Made by a program: the position numbers and the translations under genes
The notes under the pieces: model-generated
Databases searched by the model: none
Seen by the model: the letters and a program-made list of their open reading frames with translations, nothing else
Told to the model about the DNA's origin: nothing
In this document: in pieces, positions 2,441-64,000 of the stretch
Layout: each line of letters begins with the position of its first letter
Numbering within the stretch: position 1 is the first letter of the stretch
Source of the DNA: an uncultured Verrucomicrobiae bacterium
GTDB taxonomy: Bacteria > Verrucomicrobiota > Verrucomicrobiia > Chthoniobacterales > Chthoniobacteraceae
NCBI GenBank assembly: GCA_963811035.1
Contig: CAWEPO010000004.1
Coordinates: 6,331 to 70,330 of the forward strand
Direction: 5' to 3'
DNA: 64,000 bases

Positions 2441-2442
2441 AA

Positions 2443-5281: not shown

Positions 5282-5295
5282 GGCGGCCGCCTTCC

Positions 5296-6777: not shown

Positions 6778-6781
6778 TCAA

Positions 6782-7603
6782 TGGCGTGCCCATGACTACC
6801 AATTCCACATCCGAGCGGCGGAGCAGTTTAAACGCTGCGAGCACGTCAGCCAGGCCTTTGCGCTGCGACATGGAACCGGCAAACAAGACGCGCAGCTTGC
6901 CGCCGTCAGGTAAAGGTGCGTGTTCGACCGCAGGTGGAGAACCGAAGGGGGCGACGATGCATTGCTTTGTTTCCCGCAACTCGCGGGGGAGGCTGCGGGC
7001 GACAAACTCGCTCGGGCAGACGACGATGTCTGCCTGCGTAAGCTCCTCAGTTTTGCGTCCGCACTTTTCGGCGGAATCGCGCGTGGCGCCCAGGGTTGGC
7101 TCCCATTCCGGCAGCCGCGCCGCTTCCTCTTGCAACAGGCGTCGCGAGGTTTCCCAATAGGCAATCGGAAGGTTATACGCGGTCCTGATCCCGCGGTCGC
7201 GGGCCGCATGAAAAGTATCCCGTGCGGCATCCTCAAACGCATAGACGCAGCGCACTCCCCCGCCCCGCTCCACGCGCCGCGCCACCGCGCGGTCGAGCGA
7301 ACGGCAGACCGCATCGATGGAAGCAAAACCTTCTTCGTGCCTGGACAAACCACGCCATCCCAAGGCGGAGGAGGCTAGCCGCACGAGCTCGCGCCCCGGA
7401 TGTATATGCAGGCGTGAAAGGTGGATGTCATAGGTTCGCCGGCCCAACTCTTCCTGCCAGCGCCCAGGCAAGTGCCGAAGCCACCTAGAGTCCCGAGGGA
7501 CTGCCAGGCTGGTGTGAAACTCGTAGTTGGCATCGGCGCGTTCGAGGCCGCTCAGCACGGCGCGGGTAAAAGTGTTCCCTGTCGGGTGGCTGATGACGAC
7601 CAT
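6782..7603 (-). pseudogene. GT4-family (Glycos_transf_1) glycosyltransferase, N-terminal 274 aa only; truncated at the block boundary
   Basis: MVVISHPTGNTFTRAVLSGL...YAFEDAARDTFHAARDRGIRTAYNLPIAYWE...ADIVVCPSEFVARSL...GKLRVLFAGSMSQRKGLADVLAAFKLLRRSDVELVVMGTP. After this point the same frame (ORF 6023..7603) turns into Arg/Ala-rich nonsense. The E-x7-E sugar-donor motif of the C-terminal domain is missing. Confidence 0.7.
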
Positions 7604-7615
7604 GAGCGGCGCCGG

Positions 7616-9037
7616 CTAGACCTGCTTGCGACTGGCGTCCGCACTCAGCTTCGCTTTCTCTTCATTGGAGGCGAAAAGGTGCTCCGCATAGCGTGATCGC
7701 GCGCGGACTTTGCCACCTCCACGCGGAGTCGGCAGCGCGGCGGGCGGCGCATCCATCTGGGCGGCGGCCAGACAGAGGCCGCCCCCGAGCGCCGCGAAAC
7801 CAAGGACCGTGGGCTGCCCGAGCTGGCCATTGAGAATGAGCGAACCGGAAGCGCTCAGGATCAGCAGCGGCAGGAAATTATTTGCCTTCAGCGCCCGCCA
7901 GCTCACCTGCGCCAGGTAAATGAACACCGCGGCCCGCCAGAGGATGTAGAGCGGTCCCATCACATAGCCGCTCTCGATAATGAGCCGCTCCCACTCACCT
8001 TCCTCGAAGCCCGCCTTGTTGCCGATCAAGGCCGAGCCCGCCATCGTGCCGGAACCGAGCCCGGCCCCAAAGAAGGTCGAGCGCGACCAGGTGGCCGCGG
8101 GAATGAGATACGCTGAGAAAATGCGTTGCCACAACCCGCTGTGGCCGCCCGCGGTGGCAAAGCGATCGCTCAAATTCTCCACCCCCTGGCGCACCACGCC
8201 GAGCTGCATCACCAGCCCCACCACCGCCACCAGAATCGCCACGACGACGATGGCCCGGCCGAGGACTCGCGTGTCCGCAAAAGAGATGATCACCACCGCG
8301 CTGCAAACCACCATCACCACGAGAACGGCAGACCGGCTCCCGCTCGTGGCGACCGCCGCGACCACGGCCGCCGCCGAGGCCATCAACAGCCACTTCGGAT
8401 AGGTATCCTTTCTTAGTAACCCATTCAGCAAAAACCCAGACACGATCCCGTAAAAGCTCACCACCCCCACGATGAATGAGAAAGTCCCCGAAGCGCGGAC
8501 CTTTCCGCCGGTCGTCTCCAATTGCTTGCCTACACCGCCGGCGCCCGTGTTGAGCATATCCGTGGGAGAGGCCAGGAATTGCATCACGACGAGGACGCTC
8601 ATCGGAAGGGAAACGATCAGCACCCAGCGCCCCAAGCGGACGACATCCTGGTAGTTCAGCACCCTGGGAAGCAGAAAGATGAGCGGGAGATGCAGAAAGT
8701 CGGTCCTCAGTCCAAACAGGTAAACCTTTGGCTCCATTTGATTGGCAAACAATCCAAAGAGACCCACGCCAAAGAGGAGCATCCAAAACCACCCCATGAG
8801 ATTGCCCCCGGGAAAAATGCCGCGTGCCAAGGCAAGTGCATAGATCAGCAGCACCACCGGATCCCTGATGACCAGGAGCGGTGCATTGAGCCCAGGCAAC
8901 AGCCACTTGCGAAAGGCGCCTTCGAAAAGGAGCAGGAAGATATATAGCCAAATCAGGGCCCGGATCGCGCCAGCGTCCTCCGCCCTCTCCACGGGGAGCT
9001 CGCGCTCGAGGCTTCGGTCAGTCAAGGCCAGGGCCAT
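7616..9037 (-). CDS. Wzy_C / O-antigen-ligase-like polytopic membrane protein (ligase, polymerase or O-oligosaccharyltransferase)
   Basis: 473 aa with about 10-12 hydrophobic helices (LIWLYIFLLLFEGAF, VVLLIYALALARGIF, FWMLLFGVGLFGLF, LLMASAAAVVAAVATSGSRSAVLVVMVVCSAVVII, FFGAGLGSGTMAGSALIG, LYILWRAAVFIYLAQV). It also has a large loop and a basic tail. ATG at 9037, 2 nt after the upstream TAA. Confidence 0.7.
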   Translation of the reverse strand: MALALTDRSLERELPVERAEDAGAIRALIWLYIFLLLFEGAFRKWLLPGLNAPLLVIRDPVVLLIYALALARGIFPGGNLMGWFWMLLFGVGLFGLFANQMEPKVYLFGLRTDFLHLPLIFLLPRVLNYQDVVRLGRWVLIVSLPMSVLVVMQFLASPTDMLNTGAGGVGKQLETTGGKVRASGTFSFIVGVVSFYGIVSGFLLNGLLRKDTYPKWLLMASAAAVVAAVATSGSRSAVLVVMVVCSAVVIISFADTRVLGRAIVVVAILVAVVGLVMQLGVVRQGVENLSDRFATAGGHSGLWQRIFSAYLIPAATWSRSTFFGAGLGSGTMAGSALIGNKAGFEEGEWERLIIESGYVMGPLYILWRAAVFIYLAQVSWRALKANNFLPLLILSASGSLILNGQLGQPTVLGFAALGGGLCLAAAQMDAPPAALPTPRGGGKVRARSRYAEHLFASNEEKAKLSADASRKQV

Positions 9038-9039
9038 GG

Positions 9040-13949: not shown

Positions 13950-13959
13950 ACGCGACCGC

Positions 13960-18438: not shown

Positions 18439-18465
18439 TGAGCGCAAAATTACGGCCGCCGGCAA

Positions 18466-23507: not shown

Positions 23508-23514
23508 CGGAGGG

Positions 23515-24645: not shown

Positions 24646-24648
24646 CGG

Positions 24649-27466: not shown

Positions 27467-27485
27467 GGTGTGGCTCTGCGCGAAA

Positions 27486-28262: not shown

Positions 28263-28277
28263 AGCTATCGGGCAGAA

Positions 28278-59500: not shown

Positions 59501-62500
59501 CCGACTGCCCCTGCGAAATGCGAACCTGGTTACCGATGATCAGACCGCCGGGATTCATTGCGTAGATGCCGGCATTGCCGAGATCGAGCCTTCCCGTGCT
59601 GATGGCGGTTCCCGAAGTGCCGGTGGTCGCTCCGGCGATGCCGAGAAAGCCGCCGCCGATTACGGTGGTCACGCCGGTGTACGTATTCGCGCCCGAAAGT
59701 ATCCAGGTGCCGCCACCGCTTCCCTTGGTGACACTCAACGCGCCGCCGTTATCGGCGAGCACGGCCTTCATTTCGTTGGCGTCATTGCTGAAGCCATCCA
59801 GGGTCAGCGTCTTCGCGCCCGCCGTCGAGTTGACGAAGTTATTGATGACGAGCGCGCCGCTGCCGCTGGAGTCGATCGTAGAGGAGGCCGCCAGGTTGAT
59901 CTGCCGCTGCACATTCTCGCCCGAGCCGACATAAAAAAGATTGCCAGCGTTCAGCGTCAAAATGCCCGCGCCGTTGCCGAATGCGCTGGCCGCGGTCGAA
60001 CCGCCGCCGATTGAGCTCACCACGACGTTGCCCGCCGAGAGAGTCGTATTGCCCGCGTAGGTATTTGCGCCGGTGAGATAAAGCAGACCGCCGCCGGTTT
60101 TCGTAAGCCCGCTGCCCGTGCTGCCGCTGATCACGCCCGAGACCGTCGCGAAATCCATGAAGGTGCTGGTATTGTCATCCACCTGGATGGTGCGAACGGC
60201 GCCGTTCAAGTTGATCGGGTTCACCACTTCGGTATCGAAGAGCGCCGTCGTCGAGTTCAGGATCAAGGCGCCGGTGCCATTGCCGATGCCGCCGCTGCCC
60301 CAGGTCTGTGTCGCGCCAGCGCCGCCAAAATTCACCGTCAGCTTGGAATTGGCAGCGGCAAAGCCACCCGCGGTATTGGCCACCCAGCCCACCTGCCCCG
60401 CGCCAGTGCCAATGGGACGGATGAAGGTCCCGGAAGTCTCCAGAATGCCGCCGCCCAAGACCAGGTTGCTGGCCGAGGAGAGGCCCAGCCCATCGACCGC
60501 GCGCAAGGTGCCGGCCGTGATCGTGGTGGGGCCGGAATAGGTATTCGCGGTCGCAGGATTCAAGATCCACAAACCGCCGGTCAATTTAGTGACCGACAGC
60601 GCTTCGTTCGCGTTGGGATTGTTCTTGAGGCGGATGCGCAGCTCGTTGTCGCCGGCCGAATCGCCATCCAGCGTCAGCGTGCGGATGCCGGCCCCGCTGA
60701 AGACCACATCGGCCGTGTTGTTGAAGATGAGGGCCGCGCTGTTGGCGGCGCGGACGGCGATATTGTTGCCGTAGCTGCCAAAGGAGGCGATGCTCGCGTT
60801 GCCAGCCAGCGTGAAGAGTCGATCGATGCTGACCGAAGGCGTCTGCGTGGCGACCACCGCGCCGCCGGCATTGGTGCCGACATAACGGAGCGCGCCGCCA
60901 TTGAAGACGAGGCTCGCGGCATTCGTCGCATCGCTGGTGGCATCCCCGCGTCCGATGCCGCTGGCCGTCCCGATGTTAGCCAGCGTGGTCACATCGAGGT
61001 TCCCCGCGTTGAGCTGAGTAACCCCCGAGTAGGTGTGAGAGCCGGAGAAGGCGATCGTCCCCGTGCCGGCTTTAGTCAGCCCGATTTTCGCAGTCGCGCC
61101 ATCCTGGATCAAGCCGGCGAAATGACCCGCGCCGGTCGCGCCGCCGATCTGCAGGGTAGCAGTGCCCGAAGCTGCTGAGTTGGTGATCAGGCCAGGGCCG
61201 GTCAGCGCATTAATTTGATTGGTCCCCGTCAGCGAAACACCGTTCATATCGAACGTCGTGCCCTGACGCAGGATGAGATTCGCGGAAGCGCCCAAGGTGC
61301 CGGTGCCAGCCAACTGCAAGGTGCCGGCGTTGACCGTCGTCGTCCCGGTGTAGGCGTTCGCTCCGCTCACGATGAGGGTGCCGGTGCCGGATTTAGTCAG
61401 CGAACCCGCGCCGCCGCTCATCACCGCGCTGACGGTCAGCGCGTTGGCCGGCGTGGTGCCATTGATGGTAATGATCACTTCGGACGCCGAGGCGCCCAAC
61501 GTGTTCGCAGCGGTGCCATTGTTTTGAATGGTTGCAGCGCCAGTGGAGTTATCGAATAGGATGCCGCCGCTCGTGATCGTCTGGATGCCGGCCAGCGTGA
61601 TGGTCTGCGCATTCGCCATCTTGAGCGAATTGATCGACTGCGCGGCGAGGTTGGCGCCGGGGGTCGCGGTGCTCTGATAGTTGGTGGTCGCCACGCCGCC
61701 AGTGGTCGGCAACGTCGCCTGCCCGGTCAGTGCGGTCGCCGTGCCGCCCGCACCGACACTCGCGGCGAAATCCGTGCCGGCAGAGCCGAAGGTGGCGTAG
61801 CCGCCGAGGATGCCGTTGGCGCCGGCGGCGGCGGTAAAGGTGATGGAAGTGCCGGCGCCAGGATTCAAGTTGAGGGCCGCGCCCGCGCCGCGAGTGCCGA
61901 GCGAGGCGAAGTTCAGCGTCGGCACGCCGCTATTGGCAGTGACCTTCACGGAACCAGCCCCGGCAGTCGGGGTCAACGCCCCTACCTGCTCGATGAGCGT
62001 GGCACCCGCCGCGGAACCTTGATACTCGAAGATACCGCCCGCCGCGCCGTCGTTGTTCACCGGGTCCGTCGCAAAGGTGATCGCCGCCGTGTTGCCGATC
62101 AGGTTGGAGCCGTTGCCGGAATTGGCGGTGGGGCGGAACTGCATCGTGCCGCCAGCGACGTTGACACCACCAGTGAAACCGGTGCCGATCGCGCCGAAAG
62201 TGATCCCAGCGTTGGCGGCAATCGAAGTGCCGCCGATGTTGGCGCTCAAGGTGATCGTATTGGTCGCCGCATCGATCGCCGTAATGATGGTGCCGTTAGC
62301 GGGACCATTCGTCGGTGTGGCGGAAATCGTCTGGCCCAAAACGAGGCCCGCGACGCTGCTGAGCACCATCTGGTTGAGGTTCGCGGAGCCGGTCGTGACG
62401 GTGATGCCTGAGGAGGCCGCGGCGTAGTTCGCGGCAGTCGGAACATACAGCCAGGTGTTGCTCCCAATCTTCGTCAGAGAAGTCGTTGGGGTGGAGCTAT

Positions 62501-64000
62501 CCTGAATGACGCCGCGGATTTCATTGATCGTGCCGCTGGGGCTGCTGCCACCCAAGACGAACGTTTTCGCACCCGCGCCGGACGCACCGACGTTGCTGGT
62601 GAAGACCAGCGGAGTCGCGCCGGTTTCGTTCGCGAGCAGGATGGCGTTCACGCCGGTCGTGCCCGCGAGGTTCAGCACTTTGGCCGTGGTCTCGCCGGGG
62701 CCGTTATAGCTCAGGGTGCCCGCCACCGTCGTAGCGCCAAGACTCACCATGCCTGCATTGGCGCCAGTCCCGGTTACGGCATTATTGAGCGAACCCATGC
62801 CATTGATCACCAAGGTGCCCGCATTGACGTTCGTTGAGCCTCGGAACGTGGACGCCGTCCCCTCAATCGTCGCCGTGCCGGTGCCGGCTTTCGTGAAGAC
62901 GTGACCGCGGCTGGCGGCATTGATAATGCTGCCCGTTACCCGAATTTCACCCGTGGCAGTGAGGGTGAACGTGCGCAGGCCCGCGTTCTCAGACGACCGC
63001 CAGATGTCCCCCGTAAACGTCGCCAGACCACTGGAGGTATTGGCAATAGTAAGGGCCGCGATCTGCGTGCTGATACCCGCCGGGTTGAACGATGTGAAGC
63101 TGGCCCCGAAACCATTCCGGCCCGCGATAATCAAACCCTCGTTGGCCGCTGCGCCAGGCACGCCCGACAAGGTGCCGAAAGTGACGGTCTGGTTGATCGC
63201 GCTGGAGCCGCCGCTGACCCCGCGATCGACGAAGAGGGTCAGGCTGCCGGTCGTGTTGTCCGTGAGGCTGACATTTTTCCCTGCAAAACTCGCGGGCGCA
63301 TCGGTGCGGATTTCGAAAACACCGGTGCTGCCGCGGATGACACTGGCCGAAGTGCCGATGCCCAATTGCGCGCCATTGGAAAGGCGGATGGTGCCGGAAT
63401 CAGCACGGATATCGCCGATGTACGTGCTGTTATTGTTATTCAGGACCAGCGTGTTATTCAAGCCGCCTCGCGAAGACTTGTTAATGCCGGAGGTGCCGCT
63501 GACGCCGCCGATGAGCGTGCCATCGACGATGATATTGCCGGGACCGCCCGTGATGAAGAAACGCTGATCGTTCGCGGCAAAGAGGCTGCCCGTGCTGCTG
63601 ATCGTCATGTTGCCGGCCGCGGAGCCGATGCGCGCCTCGCCGATGCCGCTGTTGGCGATGAATCGCCCGGTGTACGTGTTGTTGCCGATGTTCAGGAAGG
63701 AGACGCCGACGGTGTTCGGGCCGCGACCGGCGACGTTGATATCCCTAGTGAAGGTGATGCCCGAGGTCCCGCCCTGTACCACCAACATGCCACCGGGGAT
63801 GCCCTGTGTGCCGGCGATGCCATTGATGAAGATCGGGGAGGTGCCGGCGCCCAGTTGCCCCACATTGCTCACGACCAGCGTGCCGGCGTTGATGTTGGTC
63901 TGGCCCGAGTAGCTGTTGGTATTGTTCGTCAGCGTGAGCACGCCGCCGCCATTGAGGCTAAGATTGCCAGTGCCCGTAATCTGCCCGGCGAAGGTGGTGC
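29526..64000 (-). CDS. giant PEP-CTERM-anchored beta-helical repeat protein (autotransporter-associated beta-strand repeat type), more than 11,471 aa, 5' end outside the window
   Basis: A single open frame runs from the TGA at 29526..29528 to the window edge. The listed M at 63941 is an internal GTG, and upstream codons still read ..TTFAGQITGTGNLSLNGGG. There are hundreds of ~30-aa units of the form G.G.L.L.G.N.YTG.T.I..GTL. Embedded PA14-like and Ig-like modules are present. There is no C-terminal beta-barrel, and the protein ends in a PEP-CTERM signal. Confidence 0.9.
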   Translation of the reverse strand, partial: TTFAGQITGTGNLSLNGGGVLTLTNNTNSYSGQTNINAGTLVVSNVGQLGAGTSPIFINGIAGTQGIPGGMLVVQGGTSGITFTRDINVAGRGPNTVGVSFLNIGNNTYTGRFIANSGIGEARIGSAAGNMTISSTGSLFAANDQRFFITGGPGNIIVDGTLIGGVSGTSGINKSSRGGLNNTLVLNNNNSTYIGDIRADSGTIRLSNGAQLGIGTSASVIRGSTGVFEIRTDAPASFAGKNVSLTDNTTGSLTLFVDRGVSGGSSAINQTVTFGTLSGVPGAAANEGLIIAGRNGFGASFTSFNPAGISTQIAALTIANTSSGLATFTGDIWRSSENAGLRTFTLTATGEIRVTGSIINAASRGHVFTKAGTGTATIEGTASTFRGSTNVNAGTLVINGMGSLNNAVTGTGANAGMVSLGATTVAGTLSYNGPGETTAKVLNLAGTTGVNAILLANETGATPLVFTSNVGASGAGAKTFVLGGSSPSGTINEIRGVIQDSSTPTTSLTKIGSNTWLYVPTAANYAAASSGITVTTGSANLNQMVLSSVAGLVLGQTISATPTNGPANGTIITAIDAATNTITLSANIGGTSIAANAGITFGAIGTGFTGGVNVAGGTMQFRPTANSGNGSNLIGNTAAITFATDPVNNDGAAGGIFEYQGSAAGATLIEQVGALTPTAGAGSVKVTANSGVPTLNFASLGTRGAGAALNLNPGAGTSITFTAAAGANGILGGYATFGSAGTDFAASVGAGGTATALTGQATLPTTGGVATTNYQSTATPGANLAAQSINSLKMANAQTITLAGIQTITSGGILFDNSTGAATIQNNGTAANTLGASASEVIITINGTTPANALTVSAVMSGGAGSLTKSGTGTLIVSGANAYTGTTTVNAGTLQLAGTGTLGASANLILRQGTTFDMNGVSLTGTNQINALTGPGLITNSAASGTATLQIGGATGAGHFAGLIQDGATAKIGLTKAGTGTIAFSGSHTYSGVTQLNAGNLDVTTLANIGTASGIGRGDATSDATNAASLVFNGGALRYVGTNAGGAVVATQTPSVSIDRLFTLAGNASIASFGSYGNNIAVRAANSAALIFNNTADVVFSGAGIRTLTLDGDSAGDNELRIRLKNNPNANEALSVTKLTGGLWILNPATANTYSGPTTITAGTLRAVDGLGLSSASNLVLGGGILETSGTFIRPIGTGAGQVGWVANTAGGFAAANSKLTVNFGGAGATQTWGSGGIGNGTGALILNSTTALFDTEVVNPINLNGAVRTIQVDDNTSTFMDFATVSGVISGSTGSGLTKTGGGLLYLTGANTYAGNTTLSAGNVVVSSIGGGSTAASAFGNGAGILTLNAGNLFYVGSGENVQRQINLAASSTIDSSGSGALVINNFVNSTAGAKTLTLDGFSNDANEMKAVLADNGGALSVTKGSGGGTWILSGANTYTGVTTVIGGGFLGIAGATTGTSGTAISTGRLDLGNAGIYAMNPGGLIIGNQVRISQGQSGVFTGTNAITLNGVVDLTTGGNATIVNSIVSPAVLTINGNLNNIDTTNARAFTIAGPGNTVITGSLTNTTGTGAMILALNTSGTVTFSGTQTTANAGTTITQGTLIANSNPLSGTGTLSMLGGVFQANTAFTGGNAISTLSLTGNGTNSANSAFATLTGANSVSVGTLVITASGTNPNQARSFFNNLSGANTLTVTGGVTLMNAGTGIGTLNLAGSGNTIISGAIVNGAAGPAGAGVVNYLGSGTLTLTADNTYTGATVLSGGATTLSGSGRIAGNATASITVNHGASLTLDNTGGNPTPVDRLGNKPLVLNGATFNFIGLGGGTPGSTEGTAGNTLTANSGESSINLTNNGGTTQLNFTTQAINTGGFINYTSNVALGTATNRVIFSTPPVLSPVTGGILARAAVNGTDFATYGANGIAAFSGYNVTNNLIGALSTDTMSITANADIITGRTLNALKLDTATVGSAGGFDSTLTLTSGGIFAVGGSSTLSVPRIALGAEGALHIGSGASLTVSGAFTGTTGLNKNLPGSLTLSGQQFYSGTTTFNKGTTDLTFGNNTLFPGQALTVNNGATLNLNGNVQHTGTLSGGTNPGSGGTINLGAGLLVTNMGGNGTFAGAITGTGGLARVGGSTLTVESPLAYSGPTVMMGGALTLRDSATLLNTSAITLNYANLTIDNNVNLQTNINDRVNDAAPLTLRGGSITFTGRASTFSSESLGALSAAQGANTITVGANGNATGQYATGDLTFASFARTPGATVNFVSGGGTLGAGGANPRIFATSGLANGTNNALGAWAIAGSTDFAGYNVAQGAGAVGTPGFVGYDATFAPGNITNLLAAAATTNLLSGTTTTGMLRIAGAFTNDITFTNAGDILNLQQGGLLRSANNNATSIGTAALRGILTAGGTETSGTRELIVYNASNTSGATVMTINSVISNNGAGNSVQFIKSGAGVLALTAQNLYSGGTIVNQGILELRGTNVNDVVIPAAGGLVINGGVQGTGATVTMFTNQGQIAAGTDVTLNGRATLTLVGTNSLGSLTFNNNGGEANNPTVNVGTALTLTSPSPISATTSNAAGVNTVTGGTLTLSNGANIIDVGAIQAAGFTYNNITPSLTIASIVAGAGANTSLSKTGNGLLLLSGANTFAGGVSVGGTDGGLIVSTVNSNPTTTVGGGTGSAVTAITNGPVGTGSVSMASGTKLMVNNASITLANPVSFAGNPIFDSTGLTGATLTLNGALSVPTGALNIAVLNPALTASLVGPITGLSGATSLTKTGLGNLNINLTGISSTAAITINDSTTTSLFHDGNGDVTPQVVSLGAITLDATVPVLTIGRAGQTVLWNQAVNKQLSPSSFGNLLNGINLTAANGYGLVAPNSVALSTAAPALFTIAGASNSNTVQALSLTGQVTGGPTGAGVVTFTKAGVGTLVLGNNATGAGANSFGGSGSVVDVTLGVLAVGSREALGNVGFIRLNPSAATGSILRVTDNLTLGTSDPRLQFGNATAANIKVLQVSEGKTLTLDNAFDTSIAQADLEIQDLGTVQFGANASNTAWTGALFIRGGVVKLDASSHGGALGTTAGATTISAGVAGANAALTLEGGISLAEPLIFGSQSGFNQAGALRSLAGANSVSSLLTANGVVTYIGADAGTLTLSGGLSSNAASTINFVGAGTINLTTTASGANLALALARPTASNAGALNIGVANPSLTGALTVNRGTLTVGVGGVGSVGGTGAITLGGNGTLAVNDTTTAVPNRLGSTRAITIQGGNFTYTANGGAVSSETLGTLNSAHGASTITLSNPGVTPANATLTFGALTTNVVGGGSVLTFASNETYNATTNRIIFTAGPTLTNSIIPRAVVIDASGTNFATYNGTGATGNIQAFSGYQTAIVSTPNAGLGNVIDNYQITTNAPPTPTTTSTVTFGISGDQVISGLNLRGINALKITGPGTDVTFGATGGNQLAIGTGNILVTGGGTSSLGSAGSVMSFGTTIAATTEGALLVDTGSTLNVNGAFANTANVTQGLGGNLNLNTKQYFNAGANYFTILGGTTTLAGGENTLWQGVQGGTAGQHFSIGFGATLDLNGNSQMVGDLRTPSSNAAIGGGGTITSVAPATFITANAASTWGGRITGGVFYNKTGAANLTFNYDNSYTGGTLINGATLTLQDAGQLSGLGAIDLNYGALALTDAGTIAMADRVNDGASFTLRGGTITLAGRDATNTSETLGDVLLAQGLSHIAPAVAANGTVRSAVLSLGNLTRSDSATLNVNTANGQMGNSSRLVIANGSSLLVNGIIPWAITQGNEFVSYVAPSAGNATGGLAGLNAAGYQGYDGSVLPLTSNPAGNYRLTATTTALPAGGLSINALNLVPGATSAVNFTAATDVLNLTAGTLLKSAAFNTTIGATLDSGRLTAGGAAAGVSDLYLFNFSANTTTINSRIVDNGVGRTRLVYSSLSTGPLVLTNGLNSYSGGTTINGGVTFGTGILDLSVAGADGGVTSAAIPQANTLASSLVVNAGNVRLQAANQIDFDITPILNGQATLSLNGFNQTLAGLTFNNNGGTAPQVTTGAGILTLNGNITASSSNAGTIASISGAGTGGVAVDLNGADRTFTVNPVTVNGNSTVANITPSLNITAPIGGAFAVIKAGDGLLQLGGASIFTGGVNVQTGGLAVGGSTNVTSRNASTGVADPFVNGPIGTGSLTLANGTFLTSSAAANTLNNDYTLGSSLTFRGTNNLTLNGATVLGANTTITVETPQAVLTLNGLIDDGGNTFGLTKEGLGTLLLGSNNSFTGGVTVNAGILTLAGLNAGSTAPVFAGSDATIGSGGMLSLQNNGTGNSGVITYANNIVVNGALSVANLHVGNNGANTANTIEVGSLTLNGGQTLNVSSANNYLLRLVNVAGDTVGGPVPQINPALGTTVVIFGYSGDKPINVGQGSLVFPDLVTIGTTTVLDTPTITLSGSYPLGIQNAVLTNAFLTGTAGYTSGGLNAAFSSLAATPAGVTILNSTVAGIGFSGSGFAANRLNDGVYGNRAEATNASMGTSEAVYNGFLEVTGGGNYTFRAGADDSMVLYIDGNAIITDPATLTTGHALTDLGAVTVNLTPGLHSIVYKGYNGGSTGAMRVLYSGSDTGGSFTTISPTRLYKNTAAPTLANAYAGAAIIDNDYTLAAGTAAAPNTATIDTFGSQFGAVIKETRTLTLDNNSALTVVNGTTGSFGTGFFAAGGSSVIGSGVVINTGNTATQGAGVLNLIGPITQSGTGLVSGPGASNALIKAGSGTLVLGGVYTGPSTFTGDLVIQSGFVQLNSPGALPTGQTTVANNGAGTALATSTTVSGSPTITVTSTAALQKGMLVTGTGIPAGAYIANIVDATTYTLSANATASGAANVTLTHLTGAMLDLNGQTAVTGNITINGAGAAPLAAGSSAALWNSSASAASLANALTLGSSASVGGYGDLTLGVINSAAGLTLTKQGTNTLNLTADNTATLLGPVTISLGTLKLGHAGALGATATSTTIASGAVLDTNGISNSEPFTISGVGRANVPTRNTLGALINTAAGTSTLGGAITLGANTSVGSDWINSVSGGLAGGNLAFGGPVGGAFTLTKVGSNTLTLTAANSYSATTLFQGSIVASGAGTLGNAGTVTLGQGLVSGGLPVNTLTLDNTASGISRLGTRPVTMTGAHLNLIGHATTAVNEALVAEGNILINNAYNVITLTNAGQNIRISTSGTTTNGTLQRANLGTALIRGTNLGSAAPAAGNTNVILGNLPTALFSGTTATTGANIRIIPWVIADPSATGNGTSAAATFATADATAGIRPLNTTTEMSTPAAGATVAAANNNRINAAAVTVSATGATTFTTTTVNSLMFETGGSLGISGNRNLVVDSGGILAKDSAAITGTGFLSATTANNIIIHTNGSSTTLTIDPAIGGPLTPPTAGLTKSGEGTLILNSPTGNSYTGQTRLNMGLVKFGTNAPDNALFYRAAAAPAINAVVATLSADPLVINAGATLDLNGHSQTVSQLVVGSTLPGAGGIVTNTAIGTPVDFHALQTSGLVFSGQIQGNLNLLRSGGSGAATWPLTDNNSYTGTTTLMGGLTQLIDQGRLSGTSGIFLNNAVLQWNDTGLQALASRIASNVPITFDGGAFEVLSRAGTNSLVTLGDISLAGGNALIRQSAGGAANFGVSTIHLGGTFNRSTGSTLTFTSGNGVFGDNPFLTAAAGSLTTNTNGIVGGWLTAITSNGTTANSNADFVTYDVNAGFRPLNLVQQTTSFATSLGASNLRLGANGTIVPVAGNQTINSLTMNGAAVTVAFPTATDTLTVTSGGVIAGTDANARTIGSTAVRGKLTSGGSELFLHSGSANGLIVNSDITGTLNLVMDSMSLTGGQVITLNNANSYVGSAYANGVIVNLGAPPVNATTNFVPSTTANAITGNLIINGGTINGTDSNLIANAAVRLQAANQIADAATVTVRGTSQLDLNGFNDTIANLAFNSQGGSNANQGPLVQTGAGTLTIASGGSISATNLSNVGVVPVLAGNVSLPSTIGINVATVGGTAVNGNGQIGLALNANIFGGATINKTGAGVLQLGGVSTSVTTINVNDGTIVLGPNTGGGSNFANAQVNLTSGAILDLRGQTNTQIGSVVGSGTIKNFSFNTAGTLVTGSDNVANTSFTGTITSDYTSGILNVTKIGTGNWNLGADNSASIVGTLQVANGTVTLDSATARNGFITTILSEGGTLTLDNSTNALSNRLGGTTSIGAATPDRAISMRGGTLNFLGGASSVTEALNTVTNLEGSSQWTLTAGTAPTTISMASVAASSTTNRGSLTLNAGSGQLGGGTAASGRVNVIATTTNVVANIRPDFIGIDSSGVGLVTSDANGFRLLTSADTALGYFNPNTASAVYLGNAAPAIFAATGGVTSNAATTANADVSTAVGMYAGTALNSLTLSSGGGVTSLSGGLAGPLFNAAGAINTLTLSTGTSSAALLAKTGNLGLTGGAISTAGVSALYLHALGDLTSTAYITGAGGASIVKDGPGTLNLNQKSLVATNFFVNEGTVKLGAGANTLLVVPTATTATVQDLIINSGTLDLNGNSQAVARLTNTSGANFAANAGSLVNTSATPATLFTNNPVTTFAGIIGGTGGNNLSLDKSGANAFTLTSASPYTGATNIRGGSLVLQDNGALTGGGAINANFATLSLVNSSLSHIASRTGGSAINLTGGTLSVTPRLEGETVTNIGALTLAGGQNLIAIQAQPGIGGSVNLSGTTLARTAGSGAMLNITTGTGQIGRGTALTAGQSPQLTFSTPPAVTQNLIGGWAIGNGTDFLTYLTTPSASGAVGVGLLGDLGSGFADYTTTITAAGNITSAATANTKATGNFNTNVSGATSLNSFNHTVTTAGNNLTYTLFSDTLTLTTGGFLHTGNVTSAAGQNIDYGRLTSPAAELFLFNNQNTWTINSRITGANKAVFSAGTGGSTIVLTDGTSTLPKAATTNGTTTVTLGSGTGTFDGQSVSGPGIPANTTIVSGGGTTTIVLSNAATTSANDFLTFGSTGATTLAGVTAASGATTLTGVTAAQAATMYIGQPLFGTVAGMPAGATITNIVGTTVTISAATTAALATNQIVIGTPGNNYTGGTVVNNGATLTLTPAGPGQVVVPSAGGLTINGGAVNFGGTANFGLIAPATAVTINGSGSLTFPNYTAVAPATTITNTLASVAFNNNGGTTTPALALGAPAAGQVSKVILSGAAAITAVNDNYATTPAISGTFTSATQFASLEFSNASPVINVTGLSPMGLIISAAITQNAGNTNAVSKTGAGSLVLNSASSNWTTGLALNGGTLILDAASTPSTAGSPLISTSTGPLGIGALSIAANTTLQSGTAVRAIANNVNVNGNFTFGGPLAVNGVTLNGVTNLGGATRTVTVTSPLNISTLGGQIANGGLSKAGDGILRIANAGNIYTGGTTVSAGLLQMNTVANALPLTTALVVGSTGTFDIAGLATTIGSLSGETALLGGLVTNSGAAAALTVGLGNASSTFAGILAQGTNALNLAKIGTGSLNLTNTNTSTGTLAVNQGSVILSAAGQMLFGTDTLNSGGTLSLDNSGTGLNNRLGGATKNVTISGGTLAMNGNGSAAVSETIGTLTISNGGGVIALTGAGGLGTAFAVTTLAAQATGGSAVLSGDNLNLAAGAGNATFTATTANFLAGQGGGVNGATNANGGVTNSIRSDILGANTAGGAPTGFLTKDSVTGGFRPLTTAELATTLATSATTNFGNFAAPQTYTNAAATTTSANSLSLITANGISSNGAGQSIQGGVLQRYNAGAALNSLTLTTGGVFANTSTALNVGSLTTTGNVQYHFHTVGAATVLDLNGFLTGTTGGLTKADPGTLNVNFPAYYTGTTTVNGGTLNLNTGAANTLAIAVSNTAATAQAVAINGGTLDLNGQDQVVAAISNNNALGGTGGTITSTAAANLISSTATGSTFAGSIGGALNFYKAGASTLVLTGANTYTGTTTIQGTGLTLQDSGTLASTTINLNGGALNLVNNGLANNNARIAAGALLNLNGGTIALTGANQANTNTTIGSTGAGVSLLQGLNTVTVTPPAVATNGTAALTIGTITRSSGAAAVFNAAGLGSTLPGAGQIFLTNVPALTGNILGGWATAGATAAASDSWATNAAAQSLAATTVVNTNAVTLTAGNTAQMVVGQPVSGTGIPAGSFITAITSGTAFTISQNATASGAPTVTFTAAGIVPLNSTAYTNITATGLQGAATTATGNYSVQVNSATAVQLATGGNTVNSLQIAPTGTTGATLDLNGGILAVTAGGIMRSSANLANTSITNGALTAGAAGVGGELFFALNNTTNAMTVSAVIANNAGGAVTLVKSGTGNAPLTLSAANLYSGGTVVNSGTVTMAGSVANSVVLPGDLTINNGGTVNTTATANLQMSPTANVTVNGGGTFTLAGLTTASTSYDLNSLTFNNNGGTANPSIVLPGVATGVLRLGAAVPISASSDNIGSVATIGGTGSLNLTNAAPVISVTTNLLSKVAPDLNISGIISAAGGQIEKTGNGVLALSGANTFTTGVKLTNGSLILNNAAALGTVAGTFTIGDATTANTVPLTIMAGSAGLTTNAIPVVVNRDFTFGGTVSTNNLNLAGTVNLGAVARTITVTSPAVTGTLSGALSSTSAGGLIKAGPGALTVSFANTNANFNAAPITVSGGVLKNGVTNALPNSSLLTVNAGAVYDLNGITTTNVGQISQQIAGTGLITNAGTAVATLTVGGIAANDNATAATSTFDGVIANAAQALTLVKVGTGNFTLTGANLYTGATQVVAGTLTIGADNTLPITTALTVGTSNTTLATGGILDATNFSQTVGSLTVASNTNAVTNEIKIGSGKTLTVNGNVTLGSNTSAADITNVNFTGGGTLAQISSGGTFIVGGATGATNADAATANLTGLSALTASLGTTGTFRVGDNNAGGNAGAVGASTLRLPATSTITAGTLGIGDAATQSVTHTLRLGGGVNTLNANTINVGSNSTGPGRSGGTLNFDGATGSLVIRSAADPVNGRADMNVVSSVAATGGSFVGLFDTLGHNADLRLGTLVVAGRTGANTGSATGTFSFDTGTVDVNEITAGNKGSATTGGANAGTLNFQGGTVTVNAVANPVQLGVNASNNGSSSGTLNVAGSTVTIGANGGNSIRLGQATVAAGTANGTINVTGGSLTVAGDIIRGTATGTSTAVLNLNGGTLEMGGNRIGGAVAGSNLTSLTFASGTLRNVAQINSGAAISKTTAGTLILAGTNSYTGQTNVNLGTLLLNGTNNGATGTVVTLAASGSTLGGNGSNAAAVTINSGTFLSPGSVATAGTVGTLTIGAANTTALTVAGSYLADVGAGANNVDLVALTGANANVNLTGGTISFNSISAPDQGKYTVLSFTGTRTGTFTNGTLPANYAVTYFANEVALQHLADQSFARTSAATVNAFVNTGVPLTGTLTNTAPTQSIDLLVGLSSTGSLTVDSFTPANGTAVVVGTPQAVTGTIQTGASLGAQTWAVTNTDLGSVTTAATINGTVNVFRHGTPTKLPTSTLDFGRVLVGSSPAAQGVTISNDTFGTPVANTGGITWTAGALPSGFTGGGANSTGVVASGDGSLYNYSLNTATAGVFTGGQTFTFADDASILGAGSLGTLTVNVTGNPVNQRTFTSPGTVSLGRRLLGSTLSQNATITTAGLHNVTTDSTLLAYGGSAINGLTLTGADAFIDGSNSSDNIVRAISGTLSGTAGTLTGTFNLNATDELAGGVTNAASVSYTVDALNQRLFGSPGTVDLGRVLLGTTFNHSATITTAGLHAVTTDSTLAAYAGGAINGLTLSGGPDAILGTNASDNILRSITGTLAGTAGTLSGTFNLNATDELAGAVSNAASVSFTANGVNQRLFTNPGIVNFGRVLNGAVLSQGVMITTSGLHATTTDSTLLAYGGSAINGLTLTGGPDAILGTNANDTINRTISGTFSGTGVINGTFNLNATDELAGAVTNAAAVQFTVNQVNQRTFGSPATVDLGRVLLGTTFNQAATITTSGLHADTTDSTLLAYGGSAINGLTLSGGPNFVDGSIASNNIGRTITGTLAGTAGTLTGTFNMNATDELAGSVTNAASISYTVNGVNQRLFTSPATIDLGRRLIGFAVNQNATITTSGLHATTTDSTLAAYAGGTSNGLTLSGGPTSILGANASDNIVRNINGTLTGTAGSTVSGTFNLNATDELAGAVTNAASVSYTGTAINKRAFTSPGQIDFGRVLLGSALSQGATITTSGLHATTSDSTLAAYSGSAINGLTLTGGPSVINGANASDNINRTVSGNLTGTAGILTGTFNLNETDEIAGVLTNAASVSYTVNGVNQRLFTNPATVDFGRVLNGATLSQNVIITTSGLHLTTTDSTLLAYAGSTINGLTLTGGPSFINGTNASDNISRTISGTFSGTGVINGTFNLNATDELAGAVTNAAAVSFTVNQVAQRLFTGPGTVDLGRKLLGATINQNATITTSGLHATTTDSTLAAYAGSAINGLTLSGGPNQILGTNSSDNIVRNINGTLTGTAGTLTGTFNLNATDELAGAVTNAASVAYTVNGVNQRAFTNPGTLAFGRLVIGNALSAQNAVITTAGLHNVTTDSTLLAYSGSAINGLTLSGGPTSIDGSAASNNITRAIGGTVTGTAGNAIGGTFNLNATDELAGAVTNAASVTFSGTAVNARTITNPATTSIGLVHQGASVSGSTNAFSSTGLVAATTSTRVAATGSTSNGITVTGSATDLDGSASPQTGTRNFSGAFSTPGPISGAITVGVTTLENGGAGLLNESAYAPVSIAYSADVYSGKAQWNNTGSANWDNHSNWKDTLSSVLAGTPGLAGIAGDTALFSSGITSNTVVSLNGVSPVVSAVTFNNAANTFTLAQGSGGTLTLDNGASAATITNTAGNHTISAPVQMASDTTVSVANTHGLTLSGAVGGAKALSKTGGGTLVLSGPNTYSGATIITGGVVSIGASNNLGNASATNTLAITNATLRNTGAAVDLGANRTIAITGTGTIESTGANVLTLPGVISGGAFTKAGSGTAVLSGANTYSGATTIGAGLVSIGASNNLGDGSATNTIAITDATLRNTGAAVDLGANRTIAITGTGTFDVTGANVLTASGVVSGGNVTKTGPGALVLSGTNTYTGLTSIDGGEVRASIEANLGATPASPTATSLTLNSGKLRATATFGLSANRGVTVTTLGGGIETNSGVTLSIAGPIAASASGTLTKTGAGALTLTGATGTNTLNASVAAGTVNFGAGDTTAANPNHRLLSLSVAAGANVTITAGGNKVLSTGALTLDSAATLDLTNNALVVDGGGSVFASLDASITSAYNTGLWDGPGLRSSAAASDAQYITAIGILNNNLGGTAIYDGSNPFMGGRNPGLNSILVRYTYYGDTNLDGTVTGADYTRIDSAYNLLHDTDPLNDPAINWLNGDFNYDNAIDGMDYSLIDTAYAFQTGAPLSPELLGSRQAQFGDSYTGGLPLAAVPEPASTALLATGALLLGAFRRRRKS
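29529..29612 (-). other. PEP-CTERM sorting signal (C-terminus of the giant protein)
   Basis: LAAVPEPASTALLATGALLLGAFRRRRKS*: a VPEP motif, a hydrophobic span of about 17 aa and an Arg-rich tail. VPEP is encoded at 29595..29606. Confidence 0.85.
29697..29879 (-). other. dockerin-like pair of EF-hand-type Ca-binding loops
   Basis: DTNLDGTVTGADYTRIDSAY ... DFNYDNAIDGMDYSLIDTAYAF. There are two D-x-N/D-x-D-G/N-x-[VI]-x-x-x-D-[Y] loops, each followed by a short helix and spaced about 40 aa apart, as in type I dockerins. Confidence 0.55.
30637..31194 (-). repeat. in-frame tandem duplication, 2 x 279 nt (93 aa), inside the giant gene
   Basis: LSGPNTYSGATIITGGVVSIGASNNLGNASATNTLAITNATLRNTGAAVDLGANRTIAITGTGTIESTGANVLTLPGVISGG versus LSGANTYSGATTIGAGLVSIGASNNLGDGSATNTIAITDATLRNTGAAVDLGANRTIAITGTGTFDVTGANVLTASGVVSGG. 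Nucleotides 30741..30817 and 31020..31096 are identical (77 nt, offset 279). The plus-strand shadow ORFs 30637..30915 and 30916..31194 mirror the duplication. Confidence 0.85.
32013..35120 (-). repeat. nine in-frame tandem repeats of ~345 nt (114-117 aa), Ig-like/beta-sandwich units, inside the giant gene
   Basis: Unit starts (first base of the N/A codon of NQR[LTA]F, NKRAF or AQRLF) fall at 35120, 34775, 34430, 34088, 33743, 33395, 33050, 32708 and 32363. Unit consensus: NQRLFTSPGTVDLGRVLLGT..NQSATITTSGLHATTTDSTLAAYAGSAINGLTLSGGP..ILGTNASDNI.R.I.GTL.GTAGTLTGTFNLNATDELAGAVTNAASVSYTVNGV. A degenerate 10th unit spans 32012 to ~31660, and two divergent units lie upstream at ~35830-35121. Confidence 0.9.
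50136..50640 (-). other. PA14-like carbohydrate-binding domain embedded in the giant protein (about aa 4430-4600 of the windowed ORF)
   Basis: ...GFSGSGFAANRLNDGVYGNRAEATNASMGTSEAVYNGFLEVTGGGNYTFRAGADDSMVLYIDGNAIITDPATLTTGHALTDLGAVTVNLTPGLHSIVYKGYNGGSTGAMRVLYSGSDTGGSFTTISPTRLYK. The core Y.G.l.v...G.YtF....DD...lyidG followed by G.h.i.v.y......a.l.l.w matches my memory of PA14. Confidence 0.7.

What the first reader, a model, noticed from the sequence alone, without database searches (positions are those of the whole stretch)
6782..64000. Giant PEP-CTERM protein directly upstream of a 22-gene methylated-glycan operon: candidate dedicated surface glyco-adhesin system
Seen directly: the ORF of more than 11,471 aa ends at 29526, and gmd starts 264 nt downstream on the same strand. 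Behind gmd sit 21 further tightly coupled genes: the Wzm/Wzt exporter, 5 methyltransferases, about 11 glycosyltransferases, 2 WavE-like proteins and a Wzy_C ligase-like protein.

Established: PEP-CTERM proteins are described as cargo of exosortases and as co-occurring with exopolysaccharide loci (the Haft et al. description of the PEP-CTERM/EpsH system).

Inference: the operon builds a deoxyhexose-containing, heavily O-methylated glycan. That glycan is either attached to the Thr/Ser/Asn-rich giant protein or forms the matrix in which the protein is anchored. The pairing of a single enormous cargo gene with an ABC-transporter-type glycan pathway and a ligase-like enzyme is not a textbook arrangement.

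Not seen in the window: an exosortase, a priming phosphoglycosyltransferase (WbaP/WecA type), or Wza/Wzc-type export proteins.
Basis: partly seen in the sequence, partly recalled or inferred. Interest (0 to 1): 0.8.

Follow-up and report, generated by a model that had tools for sequence, protein, structure and literature searches.

The report
Giant surface protein beside glycan genes
A huge PEP-CTERM-tagged surface protein gene really does sit next to a long sugar-polymer operon, and its sorting enzyme lies just past a break in the window, but relatives do not keep the two together, so this is an ordinary exosortase/polysaccharide locus and not a dedicated glyco-adhesin machine.

Summary
A minus-strand ORF of more than 11,490 aa (PATR repeats, dockerin-like module, PEP-CTERM tail) ends at 29526. 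gmd starts 264 nt downstream and heads 22 tightly overlapping genes.

Corrections:
- The "Wzy_C" protein (7616-9037) has no direct Pfam or NCBIfam hit. It is WaaL/Wzy-like only through family members and predicted fold.
- The last glycosyltransferase is cut mid-domain at about 6777 by a junction.

A contig from an independent assembly is identical up to that point. It continues with three GT4s, two acetyltransferases, Wza, a Wzc-type kinase, an exosortase with EpsI domain and a TPR protein. The "missing" exosortase and exporters therefore exist in this strain.

The giant-gene/operon pairing is not conserved:
- The closest giant-gene ortholog (70% identity) is followed by small PEP-CTERM genes.
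- The closest Wzt orthologs (3) and gmd homologs (3 contexts; upstream visible 1.1-2.8 kb) have no PATR or PEP-CTERM gene in the upstream DNA available.

The front module (gmd, Wzm, Wzt with a carbohydrate-binding domain, FkbM, WavE) matches textbook O-antigen pathways that depend on an ABC transporter.

Best reading: a Haft-type exosortase/exopolysaccharide locus in a probable Verrucomicrobiota genome, with one giant cargo next to it. Covalent glycosylation is untested. It is a new member of a known kind and of low to moderate interest.

The parts
29526..64000 (-). 3' part (at least 11,490 codons) of a giant PATR-repeat surface protein gene. The N-terminus lies beyond the window.
   Evidence: Open frame to the window edge. 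PF12951 PATR in at least 24 stretches. GC3 0.88. Internal repeats 30-40% identical.
29535..29609 (-). PEP-CTERM sorting signal (VPEP, hydrophobic helix, RRRRKS, stop).
   Evidence: TIGR02595 23.7 bits against cut-off 16. PF07589 20.6 against 20.7. It is the only PEP-CTERM-type ORF end in the window.
29715..29885 (-). Dockerin-type-I-like (EF-hand-like) module just before the sorting signal.
   Evidence: PF00404 E 3.7e-4, 21.1 bits against cut-off 22.9. The same module is annotated in many homologs.
32033..35117 (-). Tandem array inside the giant gene: 345-nt (115-aa) unit, 8.9 copies, 74% matches.
   Evidence: Protein self-comparison gives 60-72% identity.
29262..29525 (-). 264-nt spacer between the giant gene's stop codon and gmd.
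   Evidence: No sigma-70-like promoter or intrinsic terminator by consensus scan. No Rfam match. The independent contig L001 spans it and the last 24 nt of the giant ORF.
28278..29261 (-). gmd, GDP-mannose 4,6-dehydratase family.
   Evidence: PF16363 E 4e-104. TIGR01472 342 bits, below the equivalog cut-off of 415.
27486..28247 (-). Class I SAM methyltransferase (Methyltransf_24).
   Evidence: PF13578 E 1e-18. Start taken from the gene call on L001.
26606..27520 (-). Wzm, ABC-2 permease.
   Evidence: PF01061 E 3e-21.
25350..26609 (-). Wzt: ATPase plus a C-terminal all-beta carbohydrate-binding-type domain.
   Evidence: PF00005. AF2 model has an all-beta C-terminus, residues 267-403. Foldseek top hits are full-length A. 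aeolicus WzmWzt with its carbohydrate-binding domain: 8DL0, 7K2T, 8DKU, about 390 aligned columns, E about 1e-33. There is no direct PF14524 hit.
24649..25353 (-). FkbM-family methyltransferase 1.
   Evidence: PF05050 E 2e-21. Conserved directly after Wzt in 3 of 3 orthologous loci.
23515..24645 (-). WavE-like protein 1.
   Evidence: PF07507 E 8e-14.
22551..23507 (-). Unassigned protein, possibly a sugar O-methyltransferase.
   Evidence: TIGR04371 23.3 bits, below cut-off 44. PF13489 E 0.04.
21661..22554 (-). GT11 (alpha-1,2-fucosyltransferase family) glycosyltransferase.
   Evidence: PF01531 E 3e-32.
20741..21664 (-). GT2 glycosyltransferase.
   Evidence: PF00535 E 7e-35.
19521..20744 (-). 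GT4 glycosyltransferase.
   Evidence: PF00534 E 2e-19.
18466..19524 (-). GT4 glycosyltransferase.
   Evidence: PF13692 E 5e-13.
17443..18465 (-). WavE-like protein 2.
   Evidence: PF07507 E 7.5e-50.
16487..17446 (-). GT2 glycosyltransferase.
   Evidence: PF00535 E 1e-16.
13960..16490 (-). Two tandem paralogous GT4 genes (15222-16490 and 13960-15225), 73% identical.
   Evidence: PF00534 E 5e-32 and 6e-31. Identity.
12834..13949 (-). GT4 glycosyltransferase.
   Evidence: PF13692 E 4e-25.
11683..12837 (-). Unassigned protein, weakly GT-B-like. Conserved in relatives' loci.
   Evidence: PF13579 E 0.14 only. 32-34% identical homologs in L026 and L028.
10838..11683 (-). FkbM-family methyltransferase 2.
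   Evidence: PF05050 E 7e-14.
9828..10841 (-). GT4 glycosyltransferase.
   Evidence: PF00534 E 1e-33.
9040..9831 (-). SAM methyltransferase (Methyltransf_11/23).
   Evidence: Gene call on L002.
7616..9037 (-). Polytopic membrane protein (473 aa) of a large uncharacterised family. A divergent WaaL/Wzy-type (Wzy_C superfamily) candidate ligase or polymerase.
   Evidence: No direct Pfam, NCBIfam or PDB sequence hit. 12 of 38 family members hit PF04932, best E 1.5e-8. AF2 pLDDT 87. Best PDB fold match is WaaL 7TPG, E 1.2e-3, TM 0.45-0.50, followed by FtsW.
6777..7603 (-). 5' two-thirds of a GT4 gene, cut at a sequence junction. The full 406-aa gene is present in contig L002.
6770..6780 (.). Breakpoint. 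Identity with the independent contig L002 ends after ...GGCACGCCATTGAT (about window 6777). To its left a 5'-truncated unrelated gene begins.

Best explanation
The window shows one end of a large cell-surface locus in a probable Verrucomicrobiota bacterium. The phylum is inferred from homolog labels only.

It has four parts:
1. A giant gene for a beta-helical PATR-repeat surface protein. Its PEP-CTERM tail marks it as exosortase cargo.
2. An O-antigen-type module that depends on an ABC transporter. gmd supplies a GDP-6-deoxyhexose precursor. GT11, GT2, GT4 and WavE enzymes build the chain on a lipid carrier in the cytoplasm. Methyltransferases decorate the chain and probably cap it. Wzm/Wzt exports it, with the C-terminal carbohydrate-binding domain of Wzt recognising the capped end.
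3. A second conserved module: GT4, a WaaL/Wzy-like membrane protein, GT4, an acetyltransferase and GT4.
4. In the native sequence, which is lost from the window at the ~6777 junction, this module runs on into Wza, a Wzc-type tyrosine kinase, an exosortase-EpsI protein and a TPR protein.

The functional link between protein and glycan is most likely the one Haft et al. proposed for PEP-CTERM/EpsH systems. The protein is processed by the exosortase and deployed together with the surface polysaccharide or matrix. This is not a conserved one-to-one "glyco-adhesin" machine.

Shown here: gene content, domain and fold assignments, the exosortase continuation, and the lack of conserved adjacency.
Inferred: sugar identity, capping, the sorting step, and co-deployment.
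For: - PEP-CTERM and PATR assignments.
- Tight operon with 4-nt overlaps.
- Wzm and Wzt, with a fold match to full-length WzmWzt including its carbohydrate-binding domain.
- The core Wzm-Wzt-FkbM, with a WavE gene downstream, is conserved in 3 of 3 closest orthologous loci that lack any giant gene.
- The membrane protein is WaaL/Wzy-like by family and fold. It sits in a module conserved in L026, L028, L034 and L035.
- Contig L002 is identical to window 10122..6777. It continues to Wza, Wzc (TIGR01007 148 bits against cut-off 108) and an exosortase (TIGR04178 48 bits against cut-off 23; ACSG, NIVR and HDPAG motifs) with an EpsI domain.
- A Wza ortholog (70% identical) also follows the module in relative L034.
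- Haft 2006 describes this PEP-CTERM/EpsH/exopolysaccharide co-occurrence (PMC1569441).
Against: - The exosortase, Wza and Wzc are not in the window itself. If the ~6777 junction is a real deletion, this genome could lack them.
- No priming glycosyltransferase, no Wzx flippase, and no Fcl/Rmd-type reductase to partner gmd was found. The pathway is therefore incomplete as seen.
- The exosortase scores below the XrtA cut-off (111 against 208).
- The number of PEP-CTERM proteins in the genome is unknown, so a single-cargo exosortase cannot be excluded.
- Transcriptional coupling across the 264-nt spacer is untested.
Confidence: 0.6

Rival explanations
1. Dedicated glyco-adhesin system. The methylated glycan is built on undecaprenyl phosphate and flipped by Wzm/Wzt. 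It is then covalently joined to the giant protein. The joining step is either O-glycosylation by the WaaL/PglL-like membrane protein or exosortase transpeptidation onto the glycan, by analogy with sortase and lipid II or with T9SS PorU and A-LPS.
For: - Same-strand adjacency with a 264-nt gap and no detectable terminator.
- A Wzy_C-superfamily protein lies in the operon.
- An exosortase lies at the end of the same gene array in the same strain.
- The protein is 15.5% Thr, 8.4% Ser and 9.5% Asn.
- Haft 2006 raised glycosylation as a possibility.
Against: - The adjacency is not conserved in the closest giant-gene ortholog. It is also absent from 3 Wzt contexts and 3 gmd contexts and from 23 loci with distant C-terminal homologs.
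- The WaaL-like gene belongs to a separate conserved module that occurs in relatives without Wzm/Wzt or a giant gene nearby.
- The composition is typical of PATR passengers.
- Nothing distinguishes an oligosaccharyltransferase from a ligase or a polymerase here.
Confidence: 0.12
2. Functionally unrelated neighbours. The operon simply makes the LPS O-antigen, which the WaaL-like protein ligates to lipid A-core. The giant protein is one of many PEP-CTERM proteins that happens to lie upstream. The exosortase, Wza and Wzc serve a different exopolysaccharide.
For: - The Wzm-Wzt-FkbM module, with a WavE gene downstream, recurs in relatives beside housekeeping or LPS-type genes, including a WecA-like gene in L033, with no PEP-CTERM gene.
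- Related genomes carry many paralogous PATR/dockerin/PEP-CTERM genes at scattered loci.
Against: - One uninterrupted, overlapping gene array links the ABC module to Wza, Wzc and the exosortase in this strain.
- PEP-CTERM genes are statistically associated with exopolysaccharide loci (PMC1569441).
Confidence: 0.23
3. Part of the picture is an assembly artefact. The source is a metagenome-type contig with at least one suspect join, so the juxtaposition of the giant gene with the operon could also be chimeric.
For: - The junction at about 6777 truncates two genes. The 6.8 kb to its left shows rotating coding phase and partial domains, which looks like multiple frameshifts.
Against: - The independent short-read contig L001 is 100% identical over window 29550..26397. 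It includes the spacer and the last 24 nt (RRRRKS, stop) of the giant ORF.
- A 34.5-kb frame stays open with no frameshift.
Confidence: 0.05

Closest known systems
PEP-CTERM/EpsH (exosortase) exopolysaccharide-associated protein-sorting system (Haft et al. 2006, PMC1569441)
   Same: - C-terminal PEP motif, helix and basic tail on a Thr/Ser/Asn-rich secreted protein.
- In the same strain, an exosortase with Cys/Arg/His motifs and an EpsI domain lies in a locus with a Wza-like exporter, a Wzc-like tyrosine kinase, a TPR protein and many GT4s and acetyltransferases.
   Different: - The exosortase scores below the XrtA cut-off (111 against 208), so it is an unclassified type.
- No PrsK/PrsR was seen.
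- The locus also contains a complete Wzm/Wzt ABC-exporter module.
- The cargo is exceptionally large and lies on the same strand directly upstream. Haft described PEP-CTERM genes as mostly isolated single-gene units.
O-antigen pathways that depend on an ABC transporter and recognise a terminal cap (E. coli O9a WbdD/Wzt; A. aeolicus WzmWzt, PMC9445017; Pseudomonas common polysaccharide antigen locus with gmd/rmd, wzm, wzt and a methyltransferase, PMC7820976)
   Same: - gmd at the head of the cluster.
- Wzm, and Wzt with an extra C-terminal beta domain that superposes on the A. aeolicus carbohydrate-binding domain.
- Methyltransferases immediately next to the transporter.
- Many GT4 and GT2 genes.
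- A WaaL-like membrane protein.
   Different: - No Pfam Wzt_C hit.
- No WbdD-like terminator with kinase and coiled coil was identified.
- No rmd, fcl or wecA in view.
- Five methyltransferase-like genes and two WavE genes are more than in the model loci.
WaaL O-antigen ligase / Wzy polymerase / PglL O-oligosaccharyltransferase (Wzy_C, PF04932; WaaL structure 7TPG)
   Same: - Polytopic membrane protein.
- Best PDB fold match is WaaL.
- A third of family members reach PF04932.
   Different: - The window protein has no significant sequence match to any curated model or solved structure.
- TM-score is only 0.45-0.50.
- Ligase, polymerase and oligosaccharyltransferase roles cannot be told apart.
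Giant PATR ("autotransporter-associated beta-strand repeat") proteins of PVC bacteria, and giant bacterial adhesins in general (bioRxiv 10.1101/2023.11.21.568195)
   Same: - More than 10,000 aa.
- Divergent beta-strand repeats.
- Dockerin-like module.
- Presumed surface or adhesive role.
   Different: - No autotransporter beta-barrel. The protein ends in PEP-CTERM instead.
- Its full length is unknown.

Membership tests
PEP-CTERM protein (exosortase cargo) | PEP motif, transmembrane helix and basic cluster at the extreme C-terminus, matching the curated model. | tested here: met
   TIGR02595 23.7 bits against cut-off 16. VPEP...RRRRKS* ends the ORF. Pfam PF07589 is 0.1 bit below its cut-off.
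PEP-CTERM protein (exosortase cargo) | N-terminal signal peptide. | not testable with these tools
   The N-terminus lies outside the window.
PEP-CTERM protein (exosortase cargo) | An exosortase encoded in the same genome. | tested here: met
   It is not in the window. Contig L002, identical over 3.35 kb, carries a 519-aa exosortase-EpsI gene about 7.6 kb beyond the stop codon of 7616-9037. Same-genome status is inferred from sequence identity.
Classical autotransporter (type Va) | C-terminal beta-barrel translocator domain. | tested here: not met
   The last 1000 aa contain PATR, dockerin-like and PEP-CTERM matches only.
XrtA/EpsH-type exopolysaccharide locus (Haft 2006) | Exosortase with conserved Cys, NxxR and HxxxG, reaching the XrtA model cut-off. 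| tested here: inconclusive
   The motifs are present. The family signature TIGR04178 scores 48.3 against cut-off 23. XrtA scores 111.5 against 208 and XrtD 100.6 against 400. It is an exosortase, but not XrtA in the strict sense.
XrtA/EpsH-type exopolysaccharide locus (Haft 2006) | Associated Wza-type exporter, chain-length/tyrosine-kinase protein, TPR protein PrsT and regulators PrsK/PrsR. | tested here: inconclusive
   The tyrosine autokinase domain TIGR01007 scores 148 against cut-off 108. The Wza-like protein (TIGR03027, 64.8 against 180) and the TPR protein (PrsT, 23.8 against 312) are below cut-off. PrsK/PrsR were not seen in the 12.5 kb available.
O-polysaccharide pathway that depends on an ABC transporter (Wzm/Wzt) | ABC-2 permease plus ATPase. 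| tested here: met
   PF01061 and PF00005. Foldseek to WzmWzt structures gives E about 1e-33.
O-polysaccharide pathway that depends on an ABC transporter (Wzm/Wzt) | Wzt C-terminal carbohydrate-binding domain that reads a chain-terminating modification. | tested here: inconclusive
   There is no PF14524 hit. The predicted all-beta domain aligns over the full length with A. aeolicus Wzt including its carbohydrate-binding domain. Homologs about 52% identical carry PF14524. Ligand specificity was not tested.
O-polysaccharide pathway that depends on an ABC transporter (Wzm/Wzt) | Priming enzyme (WecA/WbaP type) and ligation to lipid A-core by WaaL. | tested here: not met
   There is no PF00953 or PF02397-type gene in the window or in L002. 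It may be encoded elsewhere, as is usual for wecA.
Wzy_C superfamily (WaaL / Wzy / PglL) | Significant match to PF04932 or to a solved member. | tested here: inconclusive
   Direct searches found nothing. 12 of 38 family members match PF04932. The best fold hit is WaaL 7TPG, E 1.2e-3, TM 0.45-0.50.
Bacterial O-linked protein glycosylation (PglL/PilO type) | Demonstrated or signature-supported oligosaccharyltransferase, plus a glycosylated acceptor protein. | not testable with these tools
   No sequence signature separates oligosaccharyltransferases from ligases here. Glycoproteomics is needed.

The most novel reading that the evidence does not exclude
The methyl-capped glycan exported by the ABC transporter is the covalent acceptor or anchor for the giant PEP-CTERM protein. 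The join would be made either by the exosortase acting as a transpeptidase or by the divergent WaaL-like protein acting as an O-oligosaccharyltransferase. That would give the first defined chemical end-product of exosortase sorting. It would be a Gram-negative counterpart of the sortase/lipid II and T9SS/A-LPS systems.
Probability: 0.1. Interest if true: 0.75.

Novelty: new member of a known kind. Interest (0 to 1): 0.3.

Why it matters
The biochemical fate of PEP-CTERM proteins after exosortase processing is still unknown. A locus that places a single, easily tracked giant cargo, a complete glycan pathway, Wza/Wzc and the exosortase in one gene array would be a convenient genetic handle, if the organism or the locus could be brought into culture or expressed elsewhere.

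As it stands, the finding mainly extends the known link between PEP-CTERM proteins and exopolysaccharide loci to an uncultured, probably Verrucomicrobiota, lineage. It also documents a large uncharacterised WaaL/Wzy-like membrane-protein family (662 hits). In addition, it flags a probable misjoin or deletion in the source contig that hides the exosortase end of the locus.

Tried and rejected
- **High-GC shadow ORF for the giant gene: rejected.** GC3 is 0.88, there are PATR hits, and a 70% ortholog exists. The long plus-strand ORFs (for example 29304-37139) are the shadows.
- **Direct assignment of 7616-9037:** Pfam at E<=1, NCBIfam and a PDB profile search all returned nothing. Only a family-wide Pfam scan and a fold search gave a signal.
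- **Source genome:** look-ups report a 1.31-Mb contig but do not return it. I therefore could not count PEP-CTERM genes, find the priming glycosyltransferase, or see the giant gene's 5' end.
- **Genome-collection scan with the giant C-terminus:** best hit only 40% identical. These are paralogous modules, not orthologs.
- **Protein search with the giant C-terminus:** it listed only proteins of 700 aa or less, so full-length orthologs could not be assessed.
- **Look-up of the chimeric ORF 6023-7603**, to see whether the junction exists in other assemblies: not on record.
- **Spacer 29262-29525:** the promoter/terminator scan and Rfam found nothing. A sigma-54-like GG...GC element there has the wrong spacing by my own reading.
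- **GC3 as evidence that the left flank is from another organism: not decisive.** The left flank is 0.92-0.97, the giant gene 0.88 and the operon 0.70-0.81.
- **Pfam on left-flank fragments:** only partial or weak hits. The frameshift claim there rests mainly on the rotating coding phase.
Full report
**1. The observation**

Every gene of interest is on the minus strand. The giant frame runs from the window edge (no stop in frame up to base 63998) to a stop codon at 29526. That gives at least 11,490 codons, with the N-terminus outside the window.

It is genuine coding sequence:
- Third-position GC is 0.88.
- Pfam finds at least 24 PATR (PF12951) stretches.
- Internal repeats are divergent at 30-40% identity, apart from a 345-nt unit repeated 8.9 times at 32033-35117.
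- A fragment 70% identical exists in a JGI metagenome.

The C-terminus has a dockerin-like module, slightly below the Pfam cut-off. It ends in VPEPASTALLATGALLLGAFRRRRKS*. This passes NCBIfam TIGR02595 (23.7 bits against 16) and misses Pfam PF07589 by 0.1 bit.

gmd starts exactly 264 nt downstream. Behind it lie 21 more genes. Their spacing ranges from -35 to +30 nt, and 11 junctions are 4-nt start/stop overlaps.

The gene order is:
gmd, Methyltransf_24, Wzm, Wzt, FkbM, WavE-like, an unassigned protein (weak sugar O-methyltransferase signal), GT11, GT2, GT4, GT4, WavE, GT2, GT4, GT4 (these two are 73% identical tandem paralogs), GT4, an unassigned weakly GT-B-like protein, FkbM, GT4, Methyltransf_11/23, a 473-aa membrane protein, and a GT4.

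**2. Two corrections**

*The membrane protein.* The "Wzy_C ligase-like" protein (7616-9037) has no Pfam, NCBIfam or PDB sequence match of its own. It belongs to a large unannotated family with 662 hits. The few source-labelled members carry Verrucomicrobiota or Opitutae names.
- 12 of 38 members reach PF04932.
- A confident AF2 model (pLDDT 87) has WaaL (7TPG) as its best PDB match. That match is weak (E 1.2e-3, TM 0.45-0.50), and FtsW follows it.
- The protein is WaaL/Wzy-like. Ligase, polymerase and oligosaccharyltransferase roles cannot be separated.

*The junction.* The final GT4 is cut after about 274 of 406 residues.
- A Logan contig from run ERR11593400 (L002) is identical to window 10122..6777 and then diverges abruptly.
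- On the window side, a 5'-truncated unrelated gene begins.
- The 6.8 kb to the left shows a coding phase that rotates 1>2>0>1>2>0>1 every 300-900 nt, and only partial domain hits. That pattern suggests several same-direction frameshifts.
- The junction is therefore a misjoin, a poor-quality stretch, or a real deletion in the source contig (1.31 Mb, metagenome-type).

**3. What lies beyond the junction**

L002 continues with the following genes:
- the full GT4, a further GT4, a 222-aa acetyltransferase-like protein, another GT4, and a WcaF-type acetyltransferase;
- a Wza-like exporter;
- a 698-aa Wzc-type tyrosine autokinase (TIGR01007, 148 bits against cut-off 108);
- a 519-aa exosortase with an EpsI domain. 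It passes the signature TIGR04178 (48 against 23) and carries the ACSG, NIVR and HDPAG motifs. Its best typed model is XrtA, but below cut-off (111 against 208);
- a TPR protein.

The priming glycosyltransferase is the exception.

**4. Is the pairing conserved?**

It is not, in any test I could run.

| Test | Result |
|---|---|
| Closest ortholog of the giant C-terminus (70% aa identity) | Followed by a 240-aa PEP-CTERM protein and the start of another PATR-like gene |
| 23 genome loci with 33-47% identical C-terminal modules (multiple paralogs per genome in Tepidisphaeraceae, Phycisphaerales and Verrucomicrobiae MAGs) | None has the operon |
| Three closest full-length Wzt orthologs (63, 58, 51%) | Conserved core Wzm-Wzt-FkbM with a WavE gene downstream. 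No PATR or PEP-CTERM gene within 10 kb upstream. |
| Closest gmd homologs (84, 79, 72%) | No giant-gene tail in the 1.1-2.8 kb visible upstream |
| Membrane-protein module in four relatives | GT4, membrane protein, GT4, acetyltransferase, GT4 is conserved. One relative (L034) has a 70%-identical Wza after it. Three have no exosortase within 10 kb. |

The window's array is thus a concatenation of at least two independently conserved modules. The giant gene's position next to it is lineage-specific.

**5. Mechanism**

The front module matches the scheme that depends on an ABC transporter and recognises a terminal cap. The Wzt model has an all-beta C-terminal domain. It superposes over its full length on A. 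aeolicus Wzt with its carbohydrate-binding domain. An FkbM methyltransferase is always next to Wzt. The model systems are described in PMC9445017 and PMC3482155. The Pseudomonas common polysaccharide antigen locus (PMC7820976) combines rhamnose-biosynthesis genes with wzm, wzt and a methyltransferase.

gmd together with GT11 suggests a fucose-type 6-deoxyhexose. No Fcl/Rmd-type reductase is in view, so this is an inference.

The giant protein is most plausibly exosortase cargo deployed with the polysaccharide, as Haft et al. proposed. Covalent attachment is possible but has no specific support.

**6. Verdict**

The exosortase/exopolysaccharide link is supported. The "dedicated" and "non-textbook" claims are not.
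- This is a new member of a known kind. Proteins above 10,000 aa are rare but documented (bioRxiv 10.1101/2023.11.21.568195).
- Interest is 0.3. The covalent-anchor reading keeps about 10% probability and would be important if true.

Noticed in passing
window 6770-6780: Abrupt breakpoint. The window is identical to the independent contig L002 down to about 6777 and then unrelated. It truncates a GT4 gene on one side and an unannotated gene on the other. It is a probable misjoin or deletion in the source contig, and it removes the Wza/Wzc/exosortase end of the locus from view.
   Followed up: partly
window 1-6776: The left flank has GC3 of 0.92-1.0, and the phase of maximal GC3 rotates 1>2>0>1>2>0>1 every 300-900 nt. 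The ORFs are fragments: a partial Esterase hit covering profile positions 92-160 of 251, a CBS pair, and a weak AstE/AspA signal. This looks like several same-direction frameshifts, either sequencing errors or pseudogenes. In contrast, the next 57 kb are free of frameshifts.
   Followed up: partly
window 32033-35117 and 30614-31237: Tandem arrays inside the giant gene: a 345-nt (115-aa) unit in 8.9 copies at 74% matches, and a 279-nt unit in 2.2 copies at 84%. The rest of the protein has only divergent repeats at 30-40% identity.
   Followed up: yes
window 13960-16490: Two adjacent GT4 genes are 73% identical at the protein level, which indicates a recent tandem duplication within the operon.
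   Followed up: yes
window 7616-9037 and loci L026, L028, L034, L035: The 473-aa membrane protein represents a large family (662 hits) with no curated model. It is always embedded in a module of GT4, membrane protein, GT4, a 222-aa acetyltransferase-like protein and GT4. No Wzx-type flippase is visible within 10 kb in any of these loci.
   Followed up: partly
L031, L033 (upstream of Wzm): In relatives, the gene just before Wzm is a fusion of about 1000 aa joining asparagine synthase (GATase/Asn_synthase) to GT4. It is absent from the window's operon.
   Followed up: no
L030 1776-2873: The closest ortholog of the giant gene's 3' end is followed by a small (240 aa) PEP-CTERM protein and another gene with a signal peptide and a PATR-like start. 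PEP-CTERM genes therefore cluster in that relative.
   Followed up: partly
L038, L040, L042: The nearest gmd homologs (about 72% identity) are each followed directly by a second gmd-like SDR paralog (46-50% identical). The window's gmd has no such partner, and no Fcl/Rmd-type reductase is in view.
   Followed up: no
window about 50325-50470 (residues 4509-4557 of the giant ORF): Weak PA14-domain match (E 6e-4, 20 bits against cut-off 24) inside the giant protein. Residues 10001-10490 of the ORF were never scanned against Pfam.
   Followed up: no
window 29304-37139, 39264-42011, 52569-56756 (+ strand): Very long plus-strand ORFs (up to 2611 aa) overlap the giant gene. They are shadow frames of the high-GC coding strand and not genes.
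   Followed up: yes
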